A DNA stretch of 64,000 nucleotides, taken from contig NC_092678.1 of NCBI RefSeq assembly GCF_964355755.1, positions 9,564,422 to 9,628,421 on the forward strand. The letters are read 5' to 3'. This document shows positions 1,096 to 29,141 of the stretch, one piece after another (position 1 is the first letter of the stretch; each line of letters opens with the position of its first letter). This stretch comes from Antedon mediterranea. Taxonomy: Eukaryota; Animalia; Echinodermata. The position numbers and the translations under genes are program-made. Under the pieces are notes generated by a model, which was given only the letters and a program-made list of their open reading frames with translations, searched no databases and was not told the origin of the DNA.

Positions 1096-1167
1096 CAACT
1101 ATGCTTTTAATTGTTTTCTCAGATTTTCTGAGATAATGGGATTGTTCGTCCGCCGAAACTAGATCAC
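1096..1167 (-). CDS. Exon of putative tyrosine-recombinase-like gene (GDLVSADEQSHYLRKSEKTIKSIV); gene continues beyond the left edge
   Basis: cttttaag| acceptor, |gtatgt donor, 72 nt, phase 1-1, in frame with exon 1270-1484. Confidence 0.75.
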
Positions 1168-1269
1168 CTTAAAAGAAAATTAAAACATATTATTATTATT
1201 ATTTCAATTTAAATAATATGACTTTCAAACATTTGATGAAAAGAAAAACTTTAATTCAGTAGATGTTAC

Positions 1270-1484
1270 CTTCAATTTCTTCGTGCTTTTTGGCCTTCTC
1301 TTCAGAAATGCGTTTTCTGAGAGCTTTGCTCAGGCCTTTGCATGCATCTTTGCACTTGTATATTTCGGCAAGCGAAACAGATTTAGATTCGTATATTGAA
1401 ATGTAGTCCAATATTTTCACAAAGGAGCACAGGTAGTGTCTTAACGTGGAGCCAGCAAGCTTCAATTGTAAATGGCTAACAGCA
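1270..1484 (-). CDS. Exon of putative tyrosine-recombinase-like gene (helical core-binding-like region, AGSTLRHYLCSFVKILDY...LSKALRKRISEEKAKKHEE)
   Basis: Lies within ORF 1256..1492; tgtttag| acceptor, |gtaaca donor, 215 nt, phase 2-1, in frame with both neighbouring exons. The STLRHYL..F motif and SK.LRK helix recall the region preceding the catalytic domain in animal YR proteins (recognition from memory). Confidence 0.75.
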
Positions 1485-1799
1485 CTAAACAATTATTTTT
1501 AAAAAAATGAAAAGAAGAGTACAATACACAAAAATCAAATATTAAAATATGTAATATCTTCATTATAGTAATTAGGATCGAGTGATTCATGGTAACTTCA
1601 CATGGTTTAAAATTCAATTCAAATTCAACTTAACATTTATTTCTTCCTTCAAGAAAATGAAGGTAGCAGGCAATAATACATTATACTCACAATCTATAGC
1701 TGACATTTAAGAAAACTTTTTATTTTAATGCTAAATGAAATTTAAATTGTTTGGCTTCTTCCTTTTTCTATTAATATAATTGTAATAAAAAAATGTTAC

Positions 1800-1947
1800 G
1801 TCTTTAATATCTTTGGAGAATATCCCTTCTCCCCTGCTTCACTCCAAATTCCCTCTATCCCCTTTATGACCTGTGCTGCATGCTTTGCCGGTATTTTTAA
1901 AGTTTCTAACATGTAGGCCTTGAACCGGCTCATTGTTGTAGATGGCT
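1800..1947 (-). CDS. Exon of the same gene (EPSTTMSRFKAYMLETLKIPAKHAAQVIKGIEGIWSEAGEKGYSPKILK)
   Basis: Lies within ORF 1796..2005; ttctatag| acceptor, |gtaaca donor, 148 nt, phase 1-2. Confidence 0.75.
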
Positions 1948-2312
1948 CTATAGAAGTTAAAAAGACTTTAATGACATTAAAAATAAGTCCATTCTTGGAA
2001 AACAAAGTTCAGGATCCGAAAGTTGACCCATGACATAATTATTATTATATTACAATTGTTATTACAGTAATTTTATTTATTAGTGTCTGGGATTGGTTAT
2101 CTAAATTAATAGTAATTATTTGGGATAAAGAGAACTTTGTATTTGACCTAAATGTAGTAGTTAGTAGTAGAAATTAGGTAATTATAATTCTCCAGCATAG
2201 ATAAAATGAATTGTTTTTGTCAATAAAAGGTACACATTTATTTTTAAATTGAAACTATTAATTATCTATCGAAAAATGAAACTTTATAATAATTTTATAA
2301 ATAAAAGGTTAC

Positions 2313-2359
2313 CTGCAAATTTACAGACTTTTTGTTGTCTGAACTTAATATATTCAGGA
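2313..2359 (-). CDS. Small exon of the same gene (PEYIKFRQQKVCKFA)
   Basis: Poly-T ...ttggcag| acceptor, |gtaacc donor, 47 nt, phase 2-1, joins exon 1800-1947 in frame. Confidence 0.65.
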
Positions 2360-2429
2360 CTGCCAACCAAAAAAAAAATGTAAATGTATAACTTACCTAT
2401 ATAACTTTGATTTGCATCACAATTAAGCT

Positions 2430-4700
2430 AAGAAATTAGCATGGATTAAGACTTACAGCGAAAATTAAAGTATTTAAAAACAATTACAAAGTAAATAAAA
2501 AATAAACATGCATGCAGTAATCTGGTGGATGATGTTAATATGAAAGTGTATGCCACATCAGGAATTGAATCTGAGTGATTACCATAGATTAAATTAAAAT
2601 AAAATAAACACACAAACACATTCTATAAACTACTAAACAAATAAACATGCATGCAGTTATCTGGTGGATGATGTTAATATGACAGTGTATGCCACATCAG
2701 GATTCAAACCCGAGACCTTCGACAAGAGTGCCGATGCTCTACCAGCTGAGCTATGATAGCATTCTATAAAAGAAATAGATTTTAGTGATTAGCATGGATT
2801 AACATATTCTATAAACTACTAAACAAAAAAACGTGCATGCAGTTATCTGGTGGATGATGTTAATATGAAGGTGTATGGCACATCAGGATTTGAATCTGAA
2901 AAATTAGCATAGATTAAACTAAAATAAAACAAAACACAAACACATTCTATAAACTACTAAACAAATAAACATGCATGCAGTTATCTGGTGGATGATGTTA
3001 ATATGAAAGTGTATGCCACATCAGGATTTGAACCCGAGATCTTCGACAAGAGTGCCGATGCTCTACCAGCTGAGCTATGATAGCATTCTATAAAAGAAAT
3101 AGATTTTAGTGATTAGCATAGATTAACACATTCTATAAACTACTAAACAAAAAAAACATGCATGCAGTTATCTGGTGGATGATGTTAATATGAAAGTGTA
3201 TGCCACATCAGGATTTGAATCTGAGTGATTAGCATAGATTAAATTAACAAAAATAAACACACAAACACATTCTATAAACTACTAAACAAATAAACATGCA
3301 TGCAGTTATCTGGTGGATGATGTTAATATGAAAGTGTATGCCACATCAGGATTTTAATCCGAGTGATTAGCATAGATTAAATTAAAGTAAAATAAACACA
3401 CAAACACATTCTATAAACTACTAAACAAAAAAACATGCATGCAGTTATCTGGTAGATGATGTTAATATGAAAGTGTATGCCACATCAGGATTTGAATCTG
3501 AAAAATTAGCATAGATTAAATTAAAATAAAACAAACACACAAACACATTCTATAAACTACTAAACAAATAAACATGCATGCAGTTATCTGGTGGATGATG
3601 TTAATATGAAAGTGTATGCCACATCAGGATTTGAACCCGAGACCTTCGACAAGAGTGCCGATGCTCTACCAGCTGAGCTATGATAGCATTCTATAAAAGA
3701 AATAGATTTTAGTGATTAGCATGGATTAACACATTCTATAAACTACTAAACAAAAAAAACATGCATGCAGTTATCTGGTGGATGATGTGAGATATGAAAG
3801 TGTATGCCACATCCGAATTTGAATCTGAAAAATTAGTATAGATTAAATTAAAAAAAACAAAAACTGAAACACATTCTATAAACTACTAAACAAATAAACA
3901 TGCATGCAGTTATCTGGTGGATGATGTTAATATGAAAGTGTATGCCACATCAGGATTTGAATCTGAAAAATTAGCATAGATTAAATTTTTTAAAAACAAA
4001 CACACAAACACATTCTATAAACTAGTAAACAAATAAACATGCATGCAGTTATCTGGTGGATGATGTTAATATGAAAGTGTATGCCACATCAGGATTTGAA
4101 TCTGAGTGATTAGCATAGATTAAATTAAAATAAAACAAACATACAAACACATTCTATAAACTACTAAACAAATAAACATTCATGCAGTTATCTGGTGGAT
4201 GATGTTAATATGAAAGTGTATGCCACATCAGGATTTGAATCTGAGTGATTAGCATAGATTAAATTAAAATAAAACAAACACACAAACACATTCTATAAAC
4301 TACTAAATAAATAAACATGCATGCAGTTATCTGGTGGATGATGTTAATATGAAAGTGTATGCCACATCAGGATTTGAATCTGAAAAATTAGCATAGATTA
4401 AATAAAAAAAAAACAAACATACAAACACATTCTATAAACTACTAAACAAATAAACATGCATGCAGTTATCTGGTGGATGATGTTAATATGAAAGTGTATG
4501 CCACATCCGAATTTGAATGTGGTGGATTTAAGCATAGATTAAAATAAAACAAACACACATTCTATTAAATACTAACAAAATAATAAATAATTTTAAAGTG
4601 TACTGCATGTACACCTCAAAATTTGGACCTGAGACAGAGTGGTGATACTCTACGAACTCTAAAAAATAGATTTTTGTAATTAACATACATATTTTAAAAA
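2430..4700 (-). repeat. tRNA-derived tandem repeat family A, ~14 units, intronic
   Basis: Mix of ~139-bp (3'-half only) and ~186-bp (full tRNA-like) units; anchors at 2526, 2665, 2851, 2989, 3176, 3314 and onward; degenerate unit at ~4600-4690. Confidence 0.95.
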
Positions 4701-4845
4701 AAAATAAACAATAAACAAACAATTATAATAGTTGGAAATACATTACTACTCTACACACTATTTCTTGGTCTGAAATAAAACAAAAAATTTAATTTAACAT
4801 TTGATTGAACATATATCTGCTAAAGTTGAAAGAATTTTAACTTAC

Positions 4846-4959
4846 AGGGAATTTATGCTTCCTTTGCAGATGCATGTCATACCTTGCCAGGTTTTTAGCC
4901 GAACATCCAGGCACACTGCAGGAATGTCTGGCCTTTTTTTCCCCCTTTATCATTAGTAT
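4846..4959 (-). CDS. Exon encoding C2H2-like zinc finger 2 (ILMIKGEKKARHSCSVPGCSAKNLARYDMHLQRKHKFP)
   Basis: ttttctag| acceptor, |gtaagt donor, 114 nt open, Cx4C-x10-Hx4H pattern. Phase 0-0 does not join the nearest confident exons directly, so microexons or a lesion are implied. Confidence 0.7.
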
Positions 4960-5307
4960 CTAGAAAACTTTAAATGATACACTCATGATAACTAGATAAA
5001 ACATACAAAACTGTTTATCATTTTTCAATAATCCAATCACAGTATTCAATTCACCCAAAAATAGAAACCATTGAGAATGTTTGGTTTTCAATACATTACA
5101 AGTGCAGTTTTCGGTTTCCAGTATTGGTAGAGTTAACTAGTAAAATATTCTATAAAAAAGAAACTGCAAACAAAACTAAGATAAATAAAAATATGTAATT
5201 TATTATATTTAGCTGAAGAAACTCCATGTTATACTTAACAATATGTTATTTATAATTTAGCTGGTAACCACATGAAAAAAATTGTTCATAATGAATGAAG
5301 TACTCAC

Positions 5308-5435
5308 CTTTTTCTAGCATCAGCAACCATGTTTTTAATTATTTCTCTATTTATTATTTTGTGGGCCTTTTCCAGATGGCTGGCAAGGTACCTGCTTATG
5401 CGGCCACACAGAATGCATGTTAACAATTTTCTGTT
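5308..5435 (-). CDS. Exon encoding C2H2-like zinc finger 1 (NRKLLTCILCGRISRYLASHLEKAHKIINREIIKNMVADARK)
   Basis: cctacag| acceptor, |gtgagt donor, 128 nt, phase 0-2, CxxC-x9-Hx4H pattern. Confidence 0.75.
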
Positions 5436-5758
5436 CTGTAGGCAATAATAAACCATGACTATTTTGAATGAATGCTTTAAGGTCTATTCATTATCAACAA
5501 CCAATATCAAAATATAAAATTTTATATTATTTGTATTCAATAAAAAAAACTATTTTAATGAAGTTAAATAATTTAAGACTTCAGTAACCACAGATGTAAA
5601 CTACAACTATCTACGGTAATTAGATTTTTGATGCTAATCTACAGGGAAAATTTAATCTAGCTAAATTGATAATAAAAAAAATGAGGAAACAAAGTTTAAG
5701 TTAATATTTTACTTCAAATTAAGTACAAAAGTATATTCAATATGCTACTTTCCCTTAC

Positions 5759-5783
5759 AGCTTTCTTCTTTTCTATGTCCTTC
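5759..5783 (-). CDS. Basic microexon (KKDIEKKKA)
   Basis: tttattag| acceptor, |gtaagg donor, 25 nt, phase 2-0, bridges 5977-6006 and 5308-5435 in frame. Confidence 0.65.
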
Positions 5784-5976
5784 CTAATAAAAACAAAATA
5801 CAACACATAGGTATTAAAGGAAAAGTACTGATAAAGTAATATAATATTTCATGTTAACTGTATATAACTACCATATTTTTATTTTTACATTATTTAATAA
5901 CATAGCATTTAGGGCCTAAGTGATCCATTGGCTGTTTATTTTAATTACAGTATTAGTCAAAAAATATTATATTTAC

Positions 5977-6006
5977 TTTTTTCCCTTCTTTTGAAAATCA
6001 CTATAC
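5977..6006 (-). CDS. Microexon (MYSDFQKKGK)
   Basis: ttgtttag| acceptor, |gtaaat donor, 30 nt, phase 2-2. Confidence 0.6.
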
Positions 6007-6194
6007 CTAAACAAATTAAAAAAATATTGTTATGGTTATAGTAATAACTAAAGTTAACACAAATAAGGATGCTCAATAGTATATGTTTTGCTACATAATA
6101 AGCTCAATCTAGAAAAATAATACTGGTAAATTTTAGAAAATGATAAACTATGTTCATTCTAGAATGTCTAAATACAAAACAGTTCATAACTTAC

Positions 6195-6404
6195 ATCTCA
6201 ACTACCTCCTCTTCTTTTTCCTCGTCTTCTTTCTCGCTTTCTTCTTCTTCTTCTTCCTCCTCCTCCTCCTCCTCCATCTCCTCCTCCTCCTCCATGTTTT
6301 CCTCTTCCTCCATTTCTTCTTCCTCGTCTTCTTTCTCATTTTCTTCCTCCTCCATGTTTTCCTCTTCCTTATTTTCTTTCTTCTCAAATTCTCCATCCTC
6401 ACTT
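6195..6404 (-). CDS. Glutamate-rich acidic exon (SEDGEFEKKENKEEENMEEEENEKEDEEEEMEEEENMEEE...EEVVE)
   Basis: taatag| acceptor, |gtaagt donor, 210 nt, phase 2-2, GAR-codon tract. The three listed ORFs here are alternative frames of this low-complexity exon. Confidence 0.75.
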
Positions 6405-6888
6405 CTATTAATAGTTCACAAAGTACACACAAATATTGTAGGTGTATTAAAATAAAAGTCGAAAAAAAAAAACTATTTATAGACCTACTATGAAATAATA
6501 TAGAAATTATATAAGCATGTATGTTTGCACAAATTAGAATAGATGTTTGGCTTTAGGTAAATAAACAACAGTATATATCCTATTCTTCGTTAACAAAATA
6601 ATTTCAAGTATTTATTTTTTAACAAAAATAAGTTTGAATTGTATGGTGTGAATAATAAAGTATAAATAATTACGTCAAAATAAAACAAAATTGTAAATTT
6701 ATGGCAAAAATGGTTTATCACAGATAACAAATCACCCGAGTTAACTAACTGGTTAATTATTGAACCGATTAATATTAAAATTTGCAAGGTAGGCTCAAAT
6801 TAAACCCTAGCCATCAGCGCAAGATCAGTAATCTGGATGTCGTGGTTCATACAAACACAACAGATTTATTCTCAAATTGGATACTTAC

Positions 6889-6918
6889 ACTTTGTCAGAC
6901 ATGTAGTCTTCTTTGCTA
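6889..6918 (-). CDS. Candidate upstream microexon (SKEDYMSDK)
   Basis: ttattag| acceptor, |gtaagt donor, 30 nt, phase 2-2, compatible with the acidic exon; contains a possible start ATG. Confidence 0.5.
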
Positions 6919-8616: not shown

Positions 8617-8767
8617 AAATTAGTGAAAGAGGCTGAATGCCAGTGATTACCTAACTGCTGAAAATTCTTCAATCGACGCGAGTGCATCTGAAATCAGCAT
8701 AATTGCACCCAAAAAACAGGTTGCATCGCGATATGCTGATCGGCCGCCGCTGATTAGCATTGAAAAG

Positions 8768-9092
8768 TTGCATTGTGCGCTCCCTCTCTGATCTATCTCT
8801 CTCTCTCGCTGATCTATCTCTCTCTTGATGATCTATCTCTCTCTCTCTCGCTGATCTATCTATCTCTCTCTCGCTGATCTATCTCTCTCTCGCTGATCTA
8901 TCTATCTCTCTCACGCTGATCTATCTCTCTCTCGCTGATCTATCTATCTCTGTCTCGCTGATCTATCTATCTCTCTCTCTCGCTGATCTCTCTCTCTCTC
9001 GCTGATCTAACTCTCTCTCTCTGATCTATCTCTCTCTCTCGCTGATCTATCTCTCTCTTGCTGATCTATCTCTCCTCAGAGCGCACATGCAA
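8768..9092. other. Inverted 14-15 bp arms flanking a minisatellite (candidate recombination half-sites / element termini)
   Basis: TTGCATTGTGCGCTC (8768-8782) and GAGCGCACATGCAA (9079-9092) are reverse complements with a 1-nt indel; CCTC lies at both inner borders (8783-8786, 9074-9077). Confidence 0.55.
8783..9078 (+). repeat. (GCTGATCTATCTCTCTCTCTC)n compound mini/microsatellite, ~14 units
   Basis: Directly visible; unit 19-25 bp with variable (TC)n/(TATC)n. Confidence 0.95.
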
Positions 9093-12000
9093 AAATGCAC
9101 ATCGGCCACCTACAGTTTTCAGTGAGAAACATGCACATTTGATGATAATCTAGGGGGACTTTCCACAGTAAGACATAGGCACAGGTGCATGTTTGCTCTC
9201 CGCGAGACTGTCACTATGAGAATTGCACATATGCTGATTTACATATAATTATTACTCTTTCTCTACCTATTCAATAAAAAGTCTGTAAAATATCGTTTTT
9301 CTGAGAGATTATTTAAGTCTCTAATTAACATTCATGTCTCTAATGATTTACACGTTATTTTCCTTGTTTTTTATGAAAAATATCGTTTTGGGGAAAAAAT
9401 TGAGTAATGTTCTAAGAACGATAGGTCGTCATATTTTTTATTTCACATTCACCAACATCGTCCTTTAAACATTTACTTTACATTGGAAACATATAACGTT
9501 TATATTTTTCCTATGTCAAAAAACACCAAAAGATCGTTTTTCCAGAGTTTCAACCCGATTTGACATCGGGAAAATGGTTTCCGCGGCGATTTTTATGTGT
9601 GTACTTAATGGTGCACATATGCTGATTTTACCAAAAATACGTTATTTTACACAAAAATTCATCGTTTTGTAAAAATTTTGAGTTTCATACACAATACATT
9701 TATATACTCTCTTTTTTTAATGAAGAAAACTAAAAAAAATATCGTGTCTTTTTTGAAAAAAATGTAAAAAACGCGTAATTTCTCAGACTCGAATGCACTT
9801 TTGATGATTTTTTAATTTTTTCATGACTTATAACTTGGTATGTATTTGATTAAATTGTATGAAGTATGCTTTTCTCTACTCACTTTTCAACAAAGAAAAT
9901 ATTCTCTTGGGTCAAAATCGATAATTTATCGTTTTTCGGCTATAATTAATTACCTTATAGGGCCTATGTAAAGAGCGCACGTCTAAATTGGGGTCGCCCT
10001 TTCACTGGAGGCTCGTTCGTTATTATATTTTTTAAATAGTTTTATAACTGTAGTTTGGTTATTTTAATAAAGTACATTTAATTAATAACTATGCTGATTT
10101 TTATTTATTTTTAGGAGTTGTTTGATTAAAATTCGACAATTTAATGTTGCCTTAATCGAATTTGTTAAAAATTAAACTAGTAAATAAATAAAATTAGCCG
10201 TTAGGGTTATGTCAACCCAATGTTTGTGAATGCTAAATTCCGTAATTTCTTCAAAATTACTACTTTACTTTATATGAAGCAATGCTTTGATTATATTTCT
10301 ATAACATATCAAAAGGATTTAATTGAAACTGTACAAAAAAGTGACAATTTATGCGATATTCTATACCATACAACAAAATTTGGAACGCGAAATATCCTTT
10401 TTGTAACATACAGAACGAAATTTTAATTTGTTTGCGGTTCAACACACATTGAGGTTATCGCGTCGTTCCGCAGACGTGACGGTATATTGGCAATTAGGTT
10501 TAGCGTAATTTCGCTATCGTAAACAGATATTTTTTTCTTATTTTGCTTCGATTTTATTTTAATTTGGCTGTTACACTTATTCTTTCCTTTTATTGGCGTC
10601 AGACACTGTGCATTTGTAAACCAAGGGAGATCAATTTAGTGACTTGGGAATGAGTAAATAGTGAATTATTGAGCATTATTCTGCGGACTTCAAATTCAAA
10701 AGTGGAACCCGGAGGTTCAGCGTGGATCAATTATCATAATATAAACAAACGGGACCAAACAAACATGTAGGATTGCTTTTTTCGGTAAACGATTAAACAA
10801 ATGACTAGACTATAATATGTAGTACTTTTTATTGTCTTATAATAAACAAGGGAGAGGTAGAGATCATAGCTATGTCTACGCTAGGCCGAAGTTTAAGCCA
10901 GGCTAGTTAGAGGGCCTCCAGTCGTATTGTAGTACTGTAGTAGTAGGCCTACTAGGCCTAGCCTATAGTTATATAGTTAATTGAAGTAGGTATGCCTAGA
11001 TAAAGTAGTCTAGGCCTAGTTTGAATGTTCAAGTACTTTAGTAATACTATCAAAGTATTCACAGCATTTAATCTGTAAAAGGCTATCTAGACTAGTTGCT
11101 AGCTAGGCGAAAATAACATTATTATTGTTATACTGCCCTTAATAACATGGAGTAATAATAAGGATAAGGTCTTGTTGGACGAGGCCATCGATCAAGTTTA
11201 CATTCCGTACAAGTTGTTCTGTTTTTCTGTTGTAAATTAGTATTTTCTATCAATCATCAACATTTTGTGTTGTGGCTATCGGGACATCAACCTCATTGGC
11301 TAATAAACAGCTCAATAAACAGCTCAGTGAATTTCGGCCACTGATCATGTCTGTTGCCGCATCCCTACTTACCAACAAAAAACACATCTCTTATAGACAA
11401 TTGTCAATAAAAACAATTTTCAGAAAAAAATTTACAAATTAGGTCAGCCGAAACCAAATCAAATTACTAGAAAAAAATAAAAAGTATTCATTTGATGCCT
11501 GGTAAACTGTGCCGATAGAAATGGTCATGGTGTACCCTAATGTAAAGAACATACTGTAAAGAAAATAATAAATCTTCTGAAACACCATTTTAAAAGCATT
11601 GCCTTCGATTTCATAAAAGGAAGACACTGTCGTATCTACCATAAATATCATTTGAGAGACAAAAAAAATTCAAGAGTGAAACAAAACACAATACAATATT
11701 TCAAATTTTATTGATTACATCACACAGAGAGTGTCAATATTCCATTACATGAAATGCTTAAATTTGACTGGGAATTATGCAATGAACAATAAATATTTAT
11801 TTAAATAAGAAATAATAATTAATTTGATTTGAATTTATTAGGAAAATCATAAAATATACATACAAAGTAATAACATAAATTAAGGCCACAGCTCAATCTT
11901 CTCATTCGGAAAAGTAAAGAACGCAAAAATAAATGGACAGAGGCATGTGGGGTCATTAAAACTGAATCGGACTGCCAGGTCATTAGATAATGAGGAAACT

Positions 12001-12789
12001 GGACAATTGACCAATGAAGCTAGCAGGTTTTGAATACCGGCAGACTAAAAACTGTCCATTTTAGAGGATTATCAAATGATCAAATGTATTAAATAAATAA
12101 AAATATTAAATAATATTAATATAAAATCCTTTCTTAAAAAAAATGTTAAATTCGACTACATATGTATGTTTTAATTGTTAGCTTTTTTAATATGACGAGA
12201 CATGTTTATCAAAAATATTAGAATTCGTGGAAGGAAATATTTGATTCATATTAAAATGAATTATAGTGGAATTACTCTTGAAATATAAAATACTCATGAC
12301 AAAATAGAAATCACAATTTAATGTACACATTTCATTGCAAAAGTTTCCCCTCTGCTTTTTTGTAAGGGCTTGGGATCTTCAAATACAAAGTGCAATGAAT
12401 GATTTAATGTAAATTATAATGCAATTATATAAACTTATTGTAATAATATAAAAATTACAAAATAATTCACTACATTAACCATTGCTCTTTGGATTTGGCA
12501 GCATTAAAAACTTTTTTTTTATTATTATTTTTATTAACTTTATTGCACATTCAGAAAACCATTAGATATGGTGGCCCAATGGCCAAATTGCATAAAATAA
12601 AAAATATTTTGTAAAAAGTGAAAATAAAATAACAGAACAAAACAAAAAATAGAAAATATATATATATGAAACAGTATAAACACTCTATTCATGGCTACAA
12701 AAATCATTTGGAATCATTCTTGTTGCTGTTTTTTTTTCCACTCTTGACGAAGGTGACGGGTGGCAACCAATAGCCGATTTCCATGCTTT

Positions 12790-13757
12790 ATCAGATGTTG
12801 CAGCACAATACCAATTTCCATAGTACTGAGTGTGGTTCTTATTTAACCTTGGTTGCTTACACTTTGAGCACACAATCACAGACATTCTTGGTTTGTACAT
12901 TTTGATCGGTTTCCAATGTCTTTAGCCACTCGTTTTCTGTACAAGAGGGTAGTTCTAGGAATGCGAGTACTACTAGCCGCAGGGACTGATGGTGGTGGGT
13001 TTGCTATCTCGCCTGGAACTGGGATCGACAGTCTGTGTTTCCTAGAGTTGCTCCGCCAGAAGTGTTTTTTGGTTGGACAAATGTGAAAGATGGAGCGCTT
13101 GCAGGATCGTTCAGCACCGCTGGATTGGTTAAAGGTTCAAGTAGGGTATTATCAGAGACAAGTTTGGGTATTGTTGCTGAGATGCCAGATTCCAACACTT
13201 GCCGCTCTTGCTTCTTTGATGTTCTGTTGTACCTATAATAACACCAATAACAAGTTAAAACTGACCGCTGGATGAGTGTCGTACGATTTATCTCCATCAA
13301 CAACAACATCAGATTAGCGGCCAGCGCTGGAAATGTTTCCCTCCGATATATACGGTAGACGGATACTCTTCACATAGTTTTGTAATAAGGCACTCCATAT
13401 ATCGATTGCAGTCCGGCCATTTGGCTGGTCCGGTGTTCTGACCTAAGAAGCATCTGTTAACCTACAAAGTGAAAAACGCAGGAAACTGCCTTACTGTCGA
13501 GTGCTTTCAACACCAGGTATTACAGCAGTCGTTTTACTTTTCTTGAACCTGCCTTTTGTGAGGTAATCGTGATGCCGTGCTTTGCGCTTAACGGTTTTGT
13601 CATACGCATCCAGGTTGTTCCACAACTTTGTGACATGTTCAGCATGACTTTGACTTATGACTTCACTGTCTTCCTTAAACTGCATAAGGTAGTCTGCCAG
13701 GGCTTCAACTTTGGCGTAGCCTGGAATGCTGTCCAGTCCAGTGGAATCCTCAAGTTC
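12790..13757 (-). pseudogene. C-terminal half of a DUF6729-type (possibly Sola3) DNA transposon protein, degenerate
   Basis: Exon 13495-13757 ELEDSTGLDSIPGYAKVEALADYL...KLWNNLDAYDK...KGRFKKSK...PGVESTR; then CFLGQNTGPAKWPDCNRYMECLITKLC; LMEINRTTLIQ; terminal CSKCKQPR...HTQYYGNWYC. Motifs recalled from this uncharacterised animal transposon family; frameshifts and deletions present. Confidence 0.65.
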
Positions 13758-15970
13758 CTAAATTTTGTTAAGAAAATATGAAAACAACATAAATAATAAG
13801 ACTTTATGCATTGTATTGCAAAACAGAAACAAAATTTATGAGGTAAATAATAATAATATTTATTCGGTCATCAATGTAAAAACAAGCACGAATGTGGGGG
13901 TACAGCGAAAGAAGCTGTAATGACGTCATAAGACCATAAAGAGAAAATGTTTTATAAGGGAAATAAGAATAAAGGTGGGCGATACCCACAAAAGAGAAGA
14001 AAAACAAATGCTTTAAATCTCAACCAAAGTTACATTAAGCAAGTCTTCAATGTATCAAGATTTGATTTGATCATCGGATGAGTTTTTAATTAATTTAATC
14101 CTGAGGATTCCATATAATTTGTAATTCTAACATGAAGCTATAAAATTAGATGATTCTACCATAGCATAACATAAATGGAGCATGATTGAGAAGAGACAGC
14201 TTTATGTTATTATATGACATTTTTTGCTTTAAAAGTGACAATTGCTAGTATACAACAGGGAAGACAGGCAGGCCCGAGGTGCTCTGAATCTCTGATGTAG
14301 AATTACATCTCTGTCGTAGAAAGTTCCAGGAAGACATATGACACTATACAAGGAAAACCAAAAATAAAATTGATTATAACGTAATGTGCAGGTGGTAATT
14401 GTGCCTTAATAACTTCTGTAGAAACTACCTTTCGATTGATCTGACCTTAGGTAGGTTGTCGGTGGTCGTCTGAAACTAGAATACATCAAAACTGCCAAGT
14501 TGAGGAGTGAGGGAGGACGTCCTAATATCTCTGCATGCACACAATGTTCTGAACACAACCTTATTTTAAGTATTATGGAATAAAAATGTATTTGATTGAT
14601 TAATGGATTACCTTGGGAATTACCTGAATACAGTAAATGCAACCAGTTACAATAGTTGTCATCATTAATGACTTCAACACCAACCCACATAGATGAAACT
14701 GAAAGTATAACAATGTAAATACAGTTGTTCTGAGTTCAGTAATGTGGGGGAAGTTAGTAATAACTAGCGTCAGAATAAACAACACAGGTACCAATAATAA
14801 AGCAGGAGTTCTCAACAGTTTTCAATCGTACGCCACATTGTAATTTACTAATAATGTTGTGTGCCAGAGATAGAATGTGAAGTCACAGGTGGGGGAACCA
14901 GCCGTGTAACAAGGGTGTTGTGTTGAATGTGTGAACAAAGCATTATAGTCAACACTCCTACTAGTAAACAAAACAGAAACAAAATATTTCATCTCATAAC
15001 ACAGTTCGTTAAGTTGTGCAGTATTATTATTAAATTTGACATTTAATTAAATAAAACACATGCATACAAAACATACGTATTGTAAACTCTTACTTTTAAA
15101 CTGCAAAAGGATGTTATGATGAAGAATATCCAGAATGTTAACAGCAACTAACTGTTGGTGGAAAATTAATGGTATATTAAAATATTAAAGTTTTCAGTTT
15201 ATATTTATTAGACAACTGATAGACAAACTATATATAGATAGATATTACACAAGTACAAATAATAATTCACTGTCAATTAATAATTTATAACTTTTCTTTT
15301 TTTCATTTATAACAATATCTTTAAAAATTATATTAAACCTTTTGTTTATATCAGCTTTTTGAAATAATGCCCTGCTATTTTAGGGTATTTAACATTATCG
15401 TATACTCAGAGTATACATACAGAAGAGTTGGTGTTAAAAAGGAGAAAGCAGAAACAAAAATAACCTATTACAAGTAAAATAGTTTTTGCAAACTAGCTAC
15501 AGTATGGTTATAACTTACCAGGTCTAAATGTGTTTGTTGTAATAATGACTGCTAAAAACCATGACTCTGAAAGAAACTCAAAGTAACTCAAACTACATGT
15601 TAATCAACATCAAAACATATGAAAATAATAAGGTAGCATGTTGTGGTGGCTTTATCATTAACTAAAATACTGCCATGTTAGGATATTCTTGGGATTGGCT
15701 TCACGTTCTATTTCTGCCAATTTTCTGAATAATCTATTAAGCTACAGAATGCTAGAATTATGTTTAACATGTCTGTGATTTGATGATCCATATATAACAT
15801 CTTGAAAGGTCTTTCCTTGCATAGAAGACAAAACTATTGTTTTCATTAATTACTTTATAGAATTTTCTTTTTCTTTTTTTGTAACTTAAATTAACATTTC
15901 CATTATTAAATCATTTAAAATAGTATAACATTTCAACAATTCATTATTAACACATGCTATGAATATAATA

Positions 15971-17745: not shown

Positions 17746-17749
17746 ATAA

Positions 17750-18070: not shown

Positions 18071-18099
18071 GGCCAAGAGTCTGGACATACCCTAAATAA

Positions 18100-19633: not shown

Positions 19634-22600
19634 TAAACTGTTACTGACTACATTTTGACTATACAGTCCATTGATTATTCTACTATGTATTTGCAGTTTA
19701 AATTCTCTAAACTGTTACTGACTAATCAACTACATTTTGACTAGACAATTCACTGATTATTCTACTATGTAGGCCTATTTGCAGTTTAAATTCTCTAAAC
19801 TGTTACTGAATAATCAACTGTCTTTTGACTAAACAATTCACTGATTATTCTACTATTTACACACAGTTTAAATTCTCTAAACTGTTCCTGAATAATCAAC
19901 TGTATTTTGACTAAACAATTCACTGATTATTCTACTATGTATTTGGAGTTGAAATTCTCTAAACTGTTACTGAATAATCAACTGTCTTTTGACTAAACAA
20001 TTCACTGATTATTCTACTATGTATTTGCAGTTTAAATTCTCTAAACTGTTACTGACTAATCAACTACATTTCGACTAGACAATTCACTGATTATTCTACT
20101 ATGTATTTGCAGTTTAAATTCTCTAAACTGTTACTGACTAATCAACTACATTTTGACTAGACAATTCACTGATTATTCTACTATGTATTTGCAGTTTAAA
20201 TTCTCTAAACTGTTACTGAATAATCAACTGTCTTTTGACTAAACAATTCACTGATTATTCTACTATTTACACACAGTTTAAATTCTCTAAACTGTTCCTG
20301 AATAATCAACTGTATTTTGACTAAACAATTCACTGATTATTCTACTATGTATTTGCAGTTTAAATTCTCTAAACTGTTACTGAATAATCAACTGTCTTTT
20401 GACTAAACAATTCACTGATTATTCTAGTGTATTTGCAGTTTAAATTCTCTAAACTGTTACTGACTAATCAACTACATTTCGACTAGACAATTCACTGATT
20501 ATTCTACTATGTATTTGCAGTTTAAATTATCTAAACTGTTACTGATTAATCAACTACTTTTGACTAGACAATTCACTGATTATTCTACTATGTATTTTCA
20601 GTTTAAATTATCGAAACTGTTACTGACTAATCAACTACATTTCGACTAGACAATTCACTGATTATTCTAATATGTATTTGCAGTTTAAATTCTCTAAACT
20701 GTTAAGTGTTACTGAATAATCAACTGTCTTTTGACTAAAAAATTCACTGATTATTCTACTATGTATTTGCAGTTTAAATTCTCTAAACTGTTACTGAATA
20801 ATCAACTGTATTTTGACTAGACAATTCATTGATTATTGTACTATTTAGACACAGTTTAAATTCTCTAAACTGTTACTGAATAATCAACTGTCTTTTGACT
20901 AGACAATTCACTGATTATTCTACTATGTATTTGCAGTTTAAATTCTCTAAACTGTTACTGAATAATCAACTGCCTTTTGACTAAACAATTCACTGATTAT
21001 TCTACTATGTATTTACAGTTTAAATTATCTAAACTGTTACTGACTAATCAACTACTTTTGACTAGACAATTCACTGATTATTCTACTATGTATTTTCAGT
21101 TTAAATTATCTAAACTGTTACTGACTAATCAACTACATTTCGACTAGACAATTCACTGATTATTCTAATATGTATTTGCAGTTTAAATTCTCTAAACTGT
21201 TACTGAATAATCAACTGTATTTTGACTAGACAATTCATTGATTATTGTACTATTTACACACAGTTTAAATTCTCTAAACTGTTACTGAATAATCAACTGT
21301 CTTTTGACTAGACAATTCACTGATTATTCTATGTGTTTGCAGTTTAAATTCTCTAAACTGTTACTGAATAATCAACTGTCTTTTGACTAAAAAATTCACT
21401 GATTATTCTACTATGTATTTGCAGTTTAAATTCTCTAAACTGTTACTGAAAAATCAACTGTATTTTGACTAGACAATTAATTGATTATTGTACTATTTAC
21501 ACACAGTTTAAATTATCTAAACTGTTACCGACTAATAAACTACTTTTGACTAGACAATTCACTGATTATTCTACTATGTATTTGCAGTTTAAATTATCTA
21601 AACTGTTACTGATTAATCAACTACATTTCGACTAGACAATTCACTGATTATTCTACTATGTATTTGCAGTTTAAATTATCTAAACTGTTACTGATTAATC
21701 AACTACATTTCGACTAGACAATTCACTGATTATTCTACTATGTATTTGCAGTTTAAATTATCTAAACTGTTACTGACTAATCAACTACATTTTGACTAGA
21801 CAATTCACTGATTATTCTACTATGTATTTGCAGTTTAAATTATCTAAACTGTTACTGAATAATAAACGGTCTTTTGACTAGACAATTCACTGATTATTCT
21901 ACTATTTACACACAGTTTAAATTCTCTAAACTGTTACTGAATAATCAACTGTATTTTGACTAAACAATTCACTGATTATTCTACTATGTATTTGCAGTTT
22001 AAATTCTATAAACTGTTACTGAATAATAAACGGTCTTTTGATTAAACAATTTACTGATTATTCTACTATGTATTTGCAGTTTAAATTATCTAAACTGTTA
22101 CTGACTAATCAACTACTTTTGACTAGACAATTCACTGATTATTCTACTATGAATTTGCAGTTTAAATTATCTAAACTGTTACTGACTAATCAACTACTTT
22201 TGACTAGACAATTCACTGATTATTCTACTATGTATTTGCAGTTTAAATTATCTAAACTGTTACTGACTAATCAACTACATTTCGACTAGACAATTCATTG
22301 ATTATTCTAATATGTATTTGCAGTTTAAATTCTCTAAACTGTTACTGAATAATCAACTGTATTTTGACAAGACAATTCATTGATTATTGTACTATTTACA
22401 CACAGTTGAAATTCTCTAAACTGTTACTGAATAATCAACTGTCTTTTGACTAGACAATTCACTGATTATTCTACTATGTATTTGCAGTTTAAATTCTCTA
22501 AACTGTTACTGAATAATCAACTGTCTTTTGACTAAAAAATTCACTGATTATTCTACTATGTATTTGCAGTTTAAATTCTCTAAACTGTTACTGAATAATC

Positions 22601-25600
22601 AACTGTATTTTGACTAGACAATTCATTGATTATTGTACTATTTACACACAGTTTAAATTATCTAAACTGTTACTGACTAATCAACTACTTTTGACTAGAC
22701 AAATAACTGATTATTCTACTATGTATTTGTAGTTTAAATTATCTAAACTGTTACTGATTAATCAACTACATTTCGACTAGACAATTCACTGATTATTCTA
22801 CTATGTATTTGCAGTTTAAATTATCTAAACTGTTACTGACTAATCAACTACATTTCGACTAGACAATTCACTGATTATTCTAATATGTATTTGCAGTTTA
22901 AATTCTCTAAACTGTTACTGAATAATCAACTGTATTTTGACTAGACAATTCATTGATTATTGTACTATTTACACACAGTTGAAATTCTCTAAACTGTTAC
23001 TGAATAATCAACTGTCTTTTTACTAGACAATTCACTGATTATTCTACTATGTATTTGCAGTTTAAATTCTCTAAACTGTTACTGAATAATCAACTGTCTT
23101 TTGACTAAAAAATTCACTGATTATTCTACTATGTATTTGCAGTTTAAATTCTCTAAACTGTTACTGAATAATCAACTGTATTTTGACTAGACAATTCATT
23201 GATTATTGTACTATTTACACACAGTTTAAATTATCTAAACTGTTACTGACTAATCAAATACATTTTGACTAGACAATTCACTGATTATTCTACTATGTAT
23301 TTGCAGTTTAAATTATCTAAACTGTTACTGAATAATAAACGGTCTTTTGACTAGACAATTCACTGATTATTCTACTATTTACACACAGTTTAAATTCCCT
23401 AAACTGTTACTGAATAATCAACTGTATTTTGACTAGACAATTCATTGATTATTCTACTATTTACACACAGTTTAAATTATCTAAACTGTTACTGACTAAT
23501 CAACTACTTTTGACTAGACAATTCACTTATTATTCTACTATGTATTTGCAGTTTAAATTCTCTAAACTGTTACTGAATAATCAACTGTATTTTTACTAGA
23601 CAATTCATTGATTATTCTACTTTTTACACACAGTTTAAATTCTCTAAACTGGTACTGAATAATCAACTGTATTTTGACTAAACAATTCACTGATTATTCT
23701 ACTATGTATTTGCAGTTTAAATTCTATAAACTGTTACTGAATAATAAACGGTCTTTTGACTAAACAATTCACTGATTATTCTACTATGTATTTACAGTTT
23801 AAATTGTCTAAACTGTTACTCAATAATCAACTGTCTTTTGACTAGACAATTCACTGATTATTCTACTATGTATTTGCAGTTTAAATTATCTAAACTGTTA
23901 CTGATTAATCAACTACATTTCGACTAGACAATTCACTGATTATTCTACTATGTATTTGCAGTTTAAATTATCTAAACTGTTACTGACTAATCAACTACAT
24001 TTTGACTAGACAATTCACTGATTATTCTACTATGTATTTGCAGTTTAAATTATCTAAACTGTTACTGAATAATAAACGGTCTTTTGACTAGACAATTCAC
24101 TGATTATTCTACTATTTACACACAGTTTAAATTCTCTAAACTGTTACTGAATAATCAACTGTATTTTGACTAAACAATTCACTGATTATTCTACTATGTA
24201 TTTGCAGTTTAAATTCTATAAACTGTTACTGAATAATAAACGGTCTTTTGATTAAACAATTTACTGATTATTCTACTATGTATTTGCAGTTTAAATTATC
24301 TAAACTGTTACTGACTAATCAACTACTTTTGACTAGACAATTCACTGATTATTCTACTATGAATTTGCAGTTTAAATTATCTAAACTGTTACTGACTAAT
24401 CAACTACTTTTGACTAGACAATTCACTGATTATTCTACTATGTATTTGCAGTTTTAATTATCTAAACTGTTACTGACTAATCAACTACATTTCGACTAGA
24501 CAATTCACTGATTATTCTAATATGTATTTGCAGTTTAAATTCTCTAAACTGTTACTGAATAATCAACTGTATTTTGACAAGACAATTCATTGATTATTGT
24601 ACTATTTACACACAGTTGAAATTCTCTAAACTGTTACTGAATAATCAACTGTCTTTTGACTAGACAATTCACTGATTATTCTACTATGTATTTGCAGTTT
24701 AAATTCTCTAAACTGTTACTGAATAATCAACTGTCTTTTGACTAAAAAATTCACTGATTATTCTACTATGTATTTGCAGTTTAAATTCTCTAAACTGTTA
24801 CTGAATAATCAACTGTATTTTGACTAGACAATTCATTGATTATTGTACTATTTACACACAGTTTAAATTATCTAAACTGTTACTGACTAATCAACTACTT
24901 TTGACTAGACAATTCACTGATTATTCTACTATGTATTTGTAGTTTAAATTATTTAAACTGTTACTGATTAATCAACTACATTTCGACTAGACAATTCACT
25001 GATTATTCTACTATGTATTTGCAGTTTAAATTATCTAAACTGTTACTGACTAATCAACTACATTTCGACTAGACAATTCACTGATTATTCTAATATGTAT
25101 TTGCAGTTTAAATTCTCTAAACTGTTACTGAATAATCAACTGTATTTTGACTAGACAATTCATTGATTATTGTACTATTTACACACAGTTGAAATTCTCT
25201 AAACTGTTACTGAATAATCAACTGTCTTTTTACTAGACAATTCACTGATTATTCTACTATGTATTTGCAGTTTAAATTCTCTAAACTGTTACTGAATAAT
25301 CAACTGTCTTTTGACTAAAAAATTCACTGATTATTCTACTATGTATTTGCAGTTTAAATTCTCTAAACTGTTACTGAATAATCAACTGTATTTTGACTAG
25401 ACAATTCATTGATTATTGTACTATTTACACACAGTTTAAATTATCTAAACTGTTACTGACTAATCAAATACATTTTGACTAGACAATTCACTGATTATTC
25501 TACTATGTATTTGCAGTTTAAATTATCTAAACTGTTACTGAATAATAAACGGTCTTTTGACTAGACAATTCACTGATTATTCTACTATTTACACACAGTT

Positions 25601-28600
25601 TAAATTCCCTAAACTGTTACTGAATAATCAACTGTATTTTGACTAGACAATTCATTGATTATTCTACTATTTACACACAGTTTAAATTATCTAAACTGTT
25701 ACTGATTAATCAACTACTTTTGACTAGACAATTCACTTATTATTCTACTATGTATTTGCAGTTTAAATTCTCTAAACTGTTACTGAATAATCAACTGTAT
25801 TTTTACTAGACAATTCATTGATTATTCTACTTTTTACACACAGTTTAAATTCTCTAAACTGGTACTGAATAATCAACTGTATTTTGACTAAACAATTCAC
25901 TGATTATTCTACTATGTATTTGCAGTTTAAATTCTATAAACTGTTACTGAATAATAAACGGTCTTTTGACTAAACAATTCACTGATTATTCTACTATGTA
26001 TTTACAGTTTAAATTCTCTAAACTGTTACTCAATAATCAACTGTCTTTTGACTAGACAATTCACTGATTATTCTACTATGTATTTGCAGTTTAAATTATC
26101 TAAACTGTTACTGATTAATCAACTACATTTCGACTAGACAATTCACTGATTATTCTACTATGTATTTGCAGTTTAAACTATCTAAACTGTTACTGACTAA
26201 TCAACTACATTTTGACTAGACAATTCACTGATTATTCTACTATGTATTTGCAGTTTAAATTATCTAAACTGTTACTGAATAATAAACGGTCTTTTGACTA
26301 GACAATTCACTGATTATTCTACTATGTATTTGCAGTTTAAATTATCTAAACTGTTACTGAATAATAAACGGTCTTTTGACTAGACAATTCACTGATTATT
26401 CTACTATTTACACACAATTTAAATTCCCTAAACTGTTACTGAATAATCAACTGTATTTTGACTAGACAATTCATTGATTATTCTACTATTTACACACAGT
26501 TTAAATTATCTAAACTGTTACTGACTAATCAACTACTTAATTTTGACTAGACAATTCACTTATTATTCTACTATGTATTTGCAGTTTAAATTCTCTAAAC
26601 TGTTACTGAATAATCAACTGTATTTTTACTAGACAATTCATTGATTATTCTACTTTTTACACACAGTTTAAATTCTCTAAACTGGTACTGAATAATCAAC
26701 TGTATTTTGACTAAACAATTCACTGATTATTCTACTATGTATTTGCAGTTTAAATTCTATAAACTGTTACTGAATAATAAACGGTCTTTTGACTAAACAA
26801 TTCACTGATTATTCTACTATGTATTTACAGTTTAAATTCTCTAAACTGTTACTCAATAATCAACTGTCTTTTGACTAGACAATTCACTGATTATTCTACT
26901 ATGTATTTGCAGTTTAAATTATCTAAACTGTTACTGATTAATCAACTACATTTCGACTAGACAATTCACTGATTATTCTACTATGTATTTGCAGTTTAAA
27001 TTATCTAAACTGTTACTGACTAATCAACTACATTTTGACTAGACAATTCACTGATTATTCTACTATGTATTTGCAGTTTAAATTATCTAAACTCTTACTG
27101 AATAATAAACGGTCTTTTGACTAGACAATTCACTGATTATTCTACTATTTACACACAGTTTAAATTCTCTAAACTGTTACTGAATAATCAACTGTATTTT
27201 GACTAAACAATTCACTGATTATTCTACTATGTATTTGCAGTTTAAATTCTCTAAACTGTTAATGAATAATAAACGGTCTTTTGACTAAACAATTCACTGA
27301 TTATTCTACTATGTATTTACAGTTTAAATTCTCTAAACTGTTACTGACTAATCAACTACATTTTGAATAAACAATTCACTGATTATTCTACTATGTATTT
27401 GCAGTTTAAATTATCTAAACTGTTACTGATTAATCAACTACATTTCGACTAGACAATTCACTGATTATTCTACTATGTATTTGCAGTTTAAATTATCTAA
27501 ACTGTTACTGACTAATCAACTACATTTTGACTAGACAATTCACTGATTATTCTACTATGTATTTGCAGTTTAAATTATCTAAACTGTTACTGAATAATAA
27601 ACGGTCTTTTGACTAGACAATTCACTGATTATTCTACTATTTACACACAGTTTAAATTCCCTAAACTGTTACTGAATAATCAACTGTATTTTGACTAGAC
27701 AATTCATTGATTATTCTACTATTTACACACAGTTTAAATTATCTAAACTGTTACTGACTAATCAACTACTTTTGACTAGACAATTCACTTATTATTCTAC
27801 TATGTATTTGCAGTTTAAATTCTCTAAACTGTTACTGAATAATCAACTGTATTTTGACTAGACAATTCATTGATTATTCTACTATTTACACACAGTTTAA
27901 ATTCTCTAAACTGTTACTGAATAATCAACTGTATTTTGACTAAACAATTCACTGATTATTCTACTATGTATTTGCAGTTTAAATTCTATAAACTGTTACT
28001 GAATAATAAACGGTCTTTTGACTAAACAATTCACTGATTATTCTACTATGTATTTACAGTTTAAATTCTCTAAACTGTTACTGAATAATCAACTGTCTTT
28101 TGACTAGACAATTCACTGATTATTCTACTATGTATTTGCAGTTTAAATTATCTAAACTGTTACTGATTAATCAACTTCATTTCGACTAGACAATTCACTG
28201 ATTATTCTACTATGTATTTGCAGTTTAAATTAGCTAAACTGTTACTGACTAATCAACTACATTTTGACTAGACAATTCACTGATTATTCTACTATGTATT
28301 TACAGTTTAAATTCTCTAAACTGTTACTGACTAATCAACTACATTTTGAATAAACAATTCACTGATTATTCTAATATGTATTTGCAGTTTAAATTATCTA
28401 AACTGTTACTGATTAATCAACTACATTTCGACTAGACAATTCACTGATTATTCTACTATGTATTTGCAGTTTAAATTATCTAAACTGTTACTGATTAATC
28501 AACTACATTTCGACTAGACAATTCACTGATTATTCTACTATGTATTTGCAGTTTAAATTATCTAAACTGTTACTGACTAATCAACTACATTTTGACTAGA

Positions 28601-28633
28601 CAATTCACTGATTATTCTACTATTACTGAATAA
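19626..28633 (+). repeat. 82-bp satellite array (~110 units) with higher-order repeats
   Basis: Unit AATTCACTGATTATTCTACTATGTATTTGCAGTTTAAATTCTCTAAACTGTTACTGAATAATCAACTGTCTTTTGACTAGAC; period measured 20001, 20083, 20165; 81-bp variants create the repetitive ORFs at 22038 and 24248. Confidence 0.98.
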
Positions 28634-28847: not shown

Positions 28848-28934
28848 CTTTGGATACATCCTCCTCATTTTGTCATATAACTGTTGAAATTCATAGTAAT
28901 GGAGAACTGGATTTTTGTTATAGACTTCTCTTGC
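28848..28934 (-). CDS. Exon, C-terminal helical domain (AREVYNKNPVLHYYEFQQLYDKMRRMYPK)
   Basis: ttttgtag| acceptor, |gtaggt donor (or read-through to TAA at 28830-28832), 87 nt, phase 0. Confidence 0.6.
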
Positions 28935-29018
28935 CTACAAAAAAAAATAAAAATTGTATTTAATAATGTGATGGTGATTATTACAATTAAATAGATAATA
29001 CATAAACATTAAACATAC

Positions 29019-29141
29019 TGTTCTTTTTGGCAGATGACCCTCTTCTATTTGTCTGCCAAACAATTTAAATACAGCGTCCATAACGTCTTGGTTGTCGAAT
29101 TTCGACTTTGGGCCATGTTTGCTTAGAGGATGGCTTACAGA
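29019..29141 (-). CDS. Exon (SVSHPLSKHGPKSKFDNQDVMDAVFKLFGRQIEEGHLPKRT)
   Basis: aactag| acceptor, |gtatgt donor, 123 nt, phase 0-0, joins 28848-28934. AV...F...I..G.LP.......P.L......DK.R resembles the Myb/SANT-like C-terminal domain of animal YR-element proteins (from memory). Confidence 0.6.

What the first reader, a model, noticed from the sequence alone, without database searches (positions are those of the whole stretch)
8691..9628. Two facing lox-like half-sites separated by a TC-rich minisatellite: candidate microsatellite-targeting YR element inserted in tandem
Seen: inverted arms TTGCATTGTGCGCTC and GAGCGCACATGCAA sit exactly at the two edges of the minisatellite, each next to CCTC. 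Collapsing the minisatellite gives TGTGCGCTC-CCTCA-GAGCGCACA, an arm-spacer-arm site. Established: tyrosine recombinases act on inverted arms around a short spacer; some CryptonV elements are, as I recall, microsatellite-specific. Inference: the left arm is the end of the element carrying the 1-8.6 kb gene, and the right arm is the opposite end of a second head-to-tail copy whose 3' exons appear at 28.8-30.9 kb in the expected orientation. The minisatellite would be the host target.
Basis: partly seen in the sequence, partly recalled or inferred. Interest (0 to 1): 0.85.

Follow-up and report, generated by a model that had tools for sequence, protein, structure and literature searches.

The report
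Minisatellite-homing transposon ends, feather star
Two short mirror-image sequences sit exactly at the edges of a 296-base repeat array in a likely feather-star genome; they are likely the tail of one copy and the head of the next copy of a large jumping element that would insert at a fixed spot in this abundant repeat using a recombinase not visible here, a strategy already known from CryptonV elements.

Summary
Observation confirmed. Inverted arms (8768-8782, 9079-9092; 9 nt exact, one 1-nt indel) abut a 296-nt TC/GATC minisatellite; a match that good at both edges arose in 48 of 200,000 trials. Public contigs support 'ends in a host repeat'. Both flanks, and the DNA out to 18 kb, lie at similar depth in organism A and mostly in B. 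Contigs end or diverge just outside the arms. The minisatellite is vastly more abundant than the arms in A and differs in B. A named Antedon gene model joins the 30.7/28.9-kb exons to 13.7 kb, linking the right arm to a second, deleted copy. Not shown: the recombinase (no catalytic domain in the window; all homology searches blank), any circle junction, absolute copy number, and whether the tandem came from two insertions or unequal crossover. A nested Dada-like fragment lies at 11.8-13.9 kb. The scan noted similar repeat-homing CryptonV-like elements in other genomes. Verdict: likely a new member of a known kind.

The parts
8768..8782 (+). Left arm; end of copy 1 on the promoter side of its gene
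   Evidence: organism-B contig runs 8384-8786 and ends there
8783..9078 (+). TC/GATC minisatellite, 13 full and 2 partial units of 19-25 nt; begins CCTC, ends CCTCA; likely host target
   Evidence: summed contig depth 8.6-48 million in X2 against about 1,100-2,600 in the nearest flank bins, at most 37 in X6
9074..9078 (+). CCTCA core next to the right arm, not a minisatellite sequence; likely the crossover (overlap) segment
   Evidence: contigs of X1 and X5 match from 9065, of X6 and X7 from 9070
9079..9092 (+). Right arm; opposite end, belonging to copy 2
   Evidence: single contigs 9065-11848 (X1) and 9070-11846 (X7)
8693..8707 (-). Subterminal motif, inverted relative to the two right-end copies; shares GCTGAT with the minisatellite unit
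9224..9238 (+). Subterminal motif
9612..9626 (+). Subterminal motif
9973..9980 (+). Third copy of the 8-nt arm core, same orientation as the right arm; role unknown
1096..6918 (-). Copy 1 gene, 5' part: two AG/GT-bounded exon chains open over 140 and 185 codons (acidic tract, two C-x2/4-C...H...H fingers, helical region); the chains meet out of phase; gene continues left of the window
11820..13940 (-). Nested high-copy Dada-like (DUF6729) deletion derivative; 3' coding fragment 12688-13757, frameshifted; boundaries approximate
14612..14665 (-). Stretch used as first exon by Antedon model P0151, recorded on two contigs, spliced to the 13757 exon
19652..28623 (.). 82-bp satellite array (109 copies) inside copy 2
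28848..30917 (-). Copy 2 gene, four 3' exons, AG/GT-bounded, open over 97 codons
   Evidence: two of them are in Antedon model P0002
30960..31551 (.). Intron block 586/593 identical to 4161-4753 (192/198 in its non-repeat part); homology stops at 31551, and a 260-bp satellite follows from 31827

Best explanation
The two arms are likely the opposite ends of two head-to-tail copies of one large (over 22 kb here) Crypton-like DNA transposon, and the 296-nt array between them is likely a remnant of its host target. Shown: arms, cores, subterminal motifs, similar contig depth along both flanks, contigs that end or diverge just outside the cores, and a second deleted gene copy downstream of the right arm. 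Inferred mechanism: the element's protein (zinc fingers, helical domain, presumed tyrosine-recombinase core, helical C-terminus) binds the arms and subterminal GCTGAT-containing motifs. It joins the two ends into a circle whose junction is arm - 5 or 6 nt spacer - arm, and recombines that site into a fixed position of the minisatellite unit, within the TC tract after TCTATCTCT, with no target duplication beyond the short core. The tandem then arose either by a second insertion into the same array or by unequal crossover between the minisatellite flanks of one insertion. Copy 2 later lost its middle and far end.
For: Arms and their chance level. X1 contigs at depth 140-151 over 5503-8236, 171 over 9065-11848 and 212-228 over 13907-17858; X7 at 68, 59 and 68-71 over 5022-5634, 9070-11846 and 14522-17772. 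Left junction varies right outside the core: the X6 contig ends at 8786 (depth 237) and the one listed continuation has depth 88 and lacks base 8787; X5 continues into a different unit phase (joint 8783 to 8885). Right junction is constant for 9-14 nt outside the arm, where contigs begin. Minisatellite mass per unit of flank depth is at least about 43 kb (X1), 135 kb (X2) and 300 kb (X5) after a worst-case 31-fold correction, against 0.3 kb between the arms. X6 has an internally deleted derivative sharing the right end (depth 210), as non-autonomous derivatives do. Antedon model P0002 joins exons matching 30720-30682, 28934-28848 and 13757-13494 and differs from the window at 3 of 29 residues in the middle one; P0151 is on two contigs. 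6 of the 11 GCTGAT hits outside the array in 1-19.6 kb lie within 8698-10093. Cryptons have 4-6 bp terminal direct repeats and YR sites are inverted arms around a 6-8 bp spacer (PMC3212892, passages); some CryptonV families insert in microsatellites (PMC8869645, passage).
Against: No recombinase motif is in the window and no search tied any exon to a YR family; the CryptonV likeness of the domain order is recalled and echoed only by unchecked AI notes. No joint across the array was listed for X2, X5, X6 or X9 (X2 not fully counted) or among the 15 joints shown of 107. No single-copy baseline was laid, and the tool warns that contig depth is not copy number, so organism B could be low-copy and junction variants could be partly allelic. 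In B, 6.5-7.9 kb is poorly covered at 85% (depth 8-66 in X6), so the link from left arm to exons is shown in A only. The X2 left contig breaks at 8774, inside the arm, which I cannot explain. PMC3212892 reports no terminal repeats in animal CryptonA/I elements. The 19-28 kb link rests on one automatic gene model.
Confidence: 0.6

Rival explanations
1. The arms are terminal inverted repeats of a cut-and-paste DDE transposon (Mutator/P/hAT-like, with subterminal repeats) that prefers this minisatellite; two copies lie head to tail and no recombinase is involved.
For: 14-15 nt imperfect inverted ends plus subterminal motifs in inverted orientation are typical TIR anatomy (recalled); no YR was demonstrated; a DDE-family fragment lies in copy 2.
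Against: The DDE fragment is a separate nested element at roughly 7-fold higher depth with its own boundaries. A constant non-target CCTCA lies outside the right arm in two organisms, which variable target duplications would not give. The visible exons show no transposase match.
Confidence: 0.14
2. Arm - minisatellite - arm is a linker inside a head-to-tail macro-repeat or segmental duplication spread passively in satellite-rich chromatin; all copies are in such arrays and the element no longer, or never, targeted the minisatellite.
For: The window is dominated by satellites. Left and right flanks have similar depth, which a fixed block also predicts. Two independent hits 0.3 kb apart in a repeat this abundant would be unlikely by chance. 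No contig can span the array.
Against: Sequence changes begin at the first base outside the left core in B, and the window's array is nearly absent in B at 85% although the flanks are about 96% alike. Right-side depth exceeds left in A (171 vs 140-151 in X1; 1407 vs 1066 in X2). A deletion derivative keeps the right end.
Confidence: 0.18
3. The arms face inward as the ends of a 325-bp miniature element whose body is the minisatellite.
For: Geometry alone: inverted repeats enclosing a tandem array.
Against: Contigs continue outward from the arms for 0.3-2.8 kb at one depth and break on the minisatellite side, the reverse of what a miniature element predicts; no target duplication outside the arms.
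Confidence: 0.03
4. The two arms end two unrelated elements, or match by chance.
For: Only 9 nt are exact; the 19-28 kb link rests on one gene model.
Against: 48 of 200,000 trials; shared subterminal motif on both sides; second gene copy in the expected orientation.
Confidence: 0.05

Closest known systems
CryptonV DNA transposons (Kapitonov and Jurka 2012, Repbase Reports 12:2034; not seen, known only from one sentence and the reference in PMC8869645)
   Same: Element ends embedded in a simple host repeat; intron-rich single gene with zinc fingers and a helical C-terminus (domain order recalled, not tested).
   Different: Target is a 19-25 nt minisatellite unit entered at a fixed phase rather than a 2-6 nt microsatellite; unit is over 22 kb with nested cargo; crinoid host, whereas the cited report title names cnidarians; recombinase not demonstrated here.
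Crypton F/S/A/I (PMC3212892, passages) and active CryptonF-1_cRei (PMC9977147, passages)
   Same: Short 4-5 nt core at both termini (CCTC here; 4-6 bp direct repeats there; CACCG end recombining with a CAYCG target in Chlamydomonas); internally deleted derivatives.
   Different: Those elements are described as lacking terminal inverted repeats, and animal CryptonA/I as lacking any terminal repeat; here there are 9-15 nt inverted arms and subterminal motifs. The core here is not present in the array's internal units.
Endogenous nimaviruses with telomere-specific tyrosine recombinases (PMC10871703, passages)
   Same: Large elements entering a host tandem repeat; their YRs carry a C2H2 finger and an N-terminal SAM-like domain.
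   Different: Those are viral genomes with many viral genes; no viral gene was recognised here, and the paper says their YRs are not close to Cryptons.
Dada DDE transposons (PMC3706591, parts 1-2 of 4 read)
   Same: The nested 11.8-13.9 kb fragment: its full-length relative P0156 has D472/D540/E730 with DxxH, a CCCC and a C-terminal CCHC finger at Dada-like spacings. Dada ends carry short motifs also found in their targets, as GCTGAT may be here.
   Different: Dada has no terminal inverted repeats and targets small-RNA genes; no tRNA or snRNA was found here. It is a passenger, not the owner of the arms.

Membership tests
Crypton / CryptonV | Encodes a tyrosine recombinase with R-H-R-Y catalytic residues | not testable with these tools
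   The expected region is left of the window in copy 1 and apparently deleted in copy 2; no genome held; exon searches blank.
Crypton / CryptonV | No reverse transcriptase or DDE transposase of its own | tested here: inconclusive
   The DDE fragment is nested and of different depth; a weak RVT_1 fragment at 17.2-17.4 kb (E 0.004, under the curated cut-off) looks like debris; part of the element is unseen.
Crypton / CryptonV | Short (4-6 bp) direct repeat at both termini | tested here: met
   CCTC at 8783 and 9074, the only CC in the array; the two come from different copies.
Crypton / CryptonV | No terminal inverted repeats (as described for CryptonF/S/A/I) | tested here: not met
   9-15 nt inverted arms are present; whether CryptonV has them could not be read.
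Crypton / CryptonV | Insertion into a simple host repeat (some CryptonV families) | tested here: met
   Both ends abut the repeat in organisms A and B with variable continuation; no empty site was compared.
Crypton / CryptonV | Multicopy, with non-autonomous derivatives | tested here: inconclusive
   Second copy in the window, models on other contigs, deletion derivative in X6; no depth baseline.
Crypton / CryptonV | Circular intermediate or clean excision | tested here: inconclusive
   No joint across the array; contigs drop rare forms and no raw reads were offered.
DDE TIR transposon (Mutator/P/hAT) | Own DDE transposase and 8-9 bp target duplication | tested here: inconclusive
   No transposase match in the visible exons; only one end of each copy is present, so no duplication can be read.
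Dada (nested fragment only) | DDE with DxxH, N-terminal CCCC and C-terminal CCHC fingers | tested here: met
   Full set in relative P0156; the window fragment holds only the CCHC finger.
Dada (nested fragment only) | Insertion in a small-RNA gene with 6-7 bp duplication | tested here: not met
   No tRNA or snRNA at its edges.

The most novel reading that the evidence does not exclude
The element and the minisatellite are a co-evolved pair. The GCTGAT core of the element's subterminal motifs is repeated in nearly every minisatellite unit, so the recombinase reads each 19-25 nt unit as a ready-made attachment site. Recombination at those units drove head-to-tail multiplication of the element and possibly the species-specific explosion of the satellite itself, which is enormous in organism A and nearly absent in this form in organism B although both carry the element. 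This would be an animal site-specific recombinase with a fully defined natural arm-spacer-arm donor and a minisatellite target.
Probability: 0.13. Interest if true: 0.72.

Novelty: new member of a known kind. Interest (0 to 1): 0.42.

Why it matters
CryptonV elements are named in Repbase, but their ends and mechanism are barely in print: the term occurs in 3 papers of the library. This locus gives a candidate donor site (arms, core, subterminal motifs) and a target at base resolution, so circle formation and target choice become testable by one PCR or one read search. If confirmed it extends repeat-targeting recombinase elements from microsatellites and telomeres to a minisatellite unit, and to crinoids. 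The strategy itself is known and this scan has noted it in other genomes, so surprise is moderate.

Tried and rejected
Three word-based protein searches with single exons, limited to longer proteins, found nothing (weak evidence). Pfam and PHROGs gave nothing above curated cut-offs. The ESM Atlas gave no usable hit. A single-sequence model of exon 1256-1489 was a two-helix hairpin with no Foldseek match at E 0.001; the PDB sequence search was uninformative. Metagenome scan with the left-arm pattern: 0 matches. With exon 1256-1489: 2 confirmed of 348 candidates, both in bacterial genes, rejected as chance. Viral scan with exon 1799-2005: 0 of 56. An arm-gap-arm pattern hit 91 viral stretches; none of 93 stored loci resembled the flanks and none had the predicted spacer. 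Rfam over 4.5-19.7 kb gave only sub-threshold microRNA matches to the TAGGCC tract; no tRNA. No RNA holder listed, so expression was not assessed. No single open splice path through all copy-1 exons was found; two open chains were. Rejected: miniature inverted-repeat element; DUF6729/Dada element as owner of the arms; the direct repeat at 9079/9973 as a target duplication (no inverted ends inside it). Look-ups of earlier findings by sequence, by place and by one word set were empty. Paper searches for DUF6729 (0 papers), Antedon repeats (1, unrelated by listing) and Crypton targeting or tandem copies showed no description of this element in listings; Repbase Reports is not in the library, and no supplements were opened.

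Full report
Observation. Between them lie 296 nt made of 13 full and 2 partial units of 19-25 nt, TGATCTA(TC)nGC. The array starts with CCTC and ends with CCTCA, and these are its only two CC dinucleotides. A match this good within 5 nt of both edges arose in 48 of 200,000 resampled pairs. A 15-nt subterminal motif occurs once on the left, inverted, and twice on the right, against 0.05 expected. Its core GCTGAT is also in nearly every minisatellite unit, and 6 of the 11 hits outside the array in 1-19.6 kb lie within 8698-10093. A third 8-nt arm core is at 9973.

Host. The window is about 31% GC and satellite-rich. The nearest proteins, 92-100% identical over the exon searched, are named Antedon mediterranea, so it is likely a feather star. 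No genome was held, so I used public contigs. Ten runs hold the stretch, from organisms coded A, B and C and one unlabelled; six were laid. The best holders may be the window's own source, and the tool warns that contig depth is not copy number.

Do the arms behave as ends? In one search (8380-10400; X2, X5, X6, X9) the flanks continue outward on long contigs and break on the minisatellite side. In X6 (organism B) the left contig ends at 8786, just after CCTC, at depth 237; the one listed continuation has depth 88, lacks base 8787, matches to 8807 and then runs on in 33 other letters. In X5 (organism A, second study) the left arm is followed by another unit phase (joint 8783 to 8885). On the right, contigs match from 9065 in A and 9070 in B, so 9-14 nt outside the arm are constant. 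This puts the junction at a fixed place in the unit, after TCTATCTCT, followed by the non-target CCTCA. The array drew 173,975 laid contigs and bin depths of 8.6-48 million in X2, against 1,066 and 1,407 for the main flank contigs. Even divided by 31 for contig overlap, that is at least about 43 kb (X1), 135 kb (X2) or 300 kb (X5) of minisatellite per unit of flank depth, against 0.3 kb here. In X6 the array at 85% has depth 37 or less while the flanks are about 96% alike. So the array is a host repeat that differs between species, not a conserved internal block. X6 also holds an internally deleted contig that shares the right end (depth 210). Against: the X2 left contig breaks at 8774, inside the arm, unexplained; no single-copy baseline was laid; variants may be partly allelic.

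Do both arms belong to one family? In one search (4760-18090; X1, X5, X6, X7) X1 has contigs at depth 140-151 over 5503-8236, one contig at 171 over 9065-11848, and 212-228 over 13907-17858. X7 has 68, 59 and 68-71 over 5022-5634, 9070-11846 and 14522-17772. In B the 6.5-7.9 kb part is poorly covered. A nested element at roughly 7-fold higher depth in X1 occupies about 11.8-13.9 kb. Its coding fragment is the 3' third of a DUF6729 protein, whose full-length relative P0156 has catalytic and zinc-finger spacings like those given for Dada transposases (PMC3706591, parts 1-2 of 4 read). An earlier AI note gave me that lead. Beyond the 82-bp satellite (19652-28623) lie four AG/GT-bounded exons open over 97 codons and an intron block 586/593 identical to 4161-4753. 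Antedon model P0002 joins exons matching 30720-30682 and 28934-28848 to the 13757 exon and differs from the window at 3 of 29 residues in the middle exon; P0151 joins 14665-14612 to the same exon and is recorded on two contigs. One of these loci could be this window's own counterpart. The chain right arm - 18 kb - 3' exons - shared intron - 5' exons - left arm is thus supported link by link, with the 19-28 kb link resting on one automatic model. Copy 2 has lost everything beyond 31551 and the exons between its shared intron block and 30917.

The gene. Copy 1 has two AG/GT exon chains, open over 140 and 185 codons, which meet out of phase: an acidic tract, two C-x2/4-C...H...H fingers and a helical region. 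From recall this order, with a helical C-terminus, resembles CryptonV proteins, and unchecked notes on other genomes describe similar layouts. I could not test it. The recombinase core would lie left of the window, and twelve searches with exons or a model gave nothing informative.

Mechanism. Tyrosine recombinases act on inverted arms around a 6-8 bp spacer, and Cryptons end in 4-6 bp direct repeats thought to be recombination substrates, with a proposed circular intermediate (PMC3212892, passages). An active Chlamydomonas Crypton recombines a CACCG end with a CAYCG target and excises cleanly (PMC9977147, passages). Some CryptonV families insert in microsatellites (PMC8869645, passage; the original Repbase report was not seen). 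I infer that the joined ends form arm-spacer-arm and recombine into the TC tract of a unit. If the target is the plain unit, the spacer is CCCTCA, 6 nt, with no duplication. No joint across the array was listed, but contigs drop rare molecules, X2 was not fully counted and one search showed 15 of 107 joints. Two independent insertions 0.3 kb apart in so abundant a repeat seem unlikely by chance, so unequal crossover between the flanks of one insertion, or local re-insertion, explains the tandem at least as well.

Verdict. Best reading, 0.6: head-to-tail ends of a large CryptonV-like element homing to a minisatellite. Rivals: passive macro-repeat linker 0.18, DDE inverted-repeat element 0.14, unrelated or chance ends 0.05, miniature element 0.03. 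It works like a repeat-targeting Crypton; membership is unproven because the defining recombinase could not be tested, and the inverted arms depart from the published description of other Cryptons. Seven paper searches showed no description of this element in their listings, but Repbase Reports is not held and no supplements were read. The scan has 15 notes mentioning CryptonV in at least 10 genomes, of which I saw 8, several describing telomere- or microsatellite-homing elements. New member of a known kind; interest 0.42.

Noticed in passing
window 11820-13940: High-copy deletion derivative of a Dada-like (DUF6729) transposon nested in copy 2, apparently at the same place in organisms A and B (contigs of X1, X6 and X7 all stop at 11846-11848). 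TCTTCTCAT at about 11897 resembles the Dada-U6 subterminal repeat. No small-RNA target at its edges.
   Followed up: partly
window 1-530, 2496-4553, 29302-30054, 30960-31380: 139-bp intronic tandem repeat inside the element's gene; some units carry a stretch that looks like a reversed tRNA/SINE fragment by eye (ARAGORN found no tRNA).
   Followed up: no
window 31827-64000: 260-bp satellite whose orientation flips at about 33551 (about 7 units one way, 117 the other); it lies just beyond the point where copy 2 ends.
   Followed up: no
window 19652-28623 and 18098-19110: 82-bp satellite (109 copies) and a 47-bp-based array inside copy 2; the 82-bp array starts inside a LINE-like fragment at about 19.2-19.65 kb (by eye).
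   Followed up: no
window 9973-9980: Third arm core in the same orientation as the right arm, 894 nt inside; could be an accessory site or an older end. The window has about 7 extra bases just before it relative to all four runs laid.
   Followed up: partly
window 8783-9078: This minisatellite is extremely abundant in organism A and nearly absent in this form in organism B, although the flanks are about 96% alike: fast satellite turnover.
   Followed up: partly
window 15885-17430: Retroelement debris at raised depth, with a weak RVT_1 match at 17236-17400.
   Followed up: no
window 7860-8375 and 10860-11110: TAGGCC/CTAG-rich, self-complementary low-complexity tracts about 0.4 kb and 1.8 kb inside the two ends; they draw spurious microRNA matches.
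   Followed up: no
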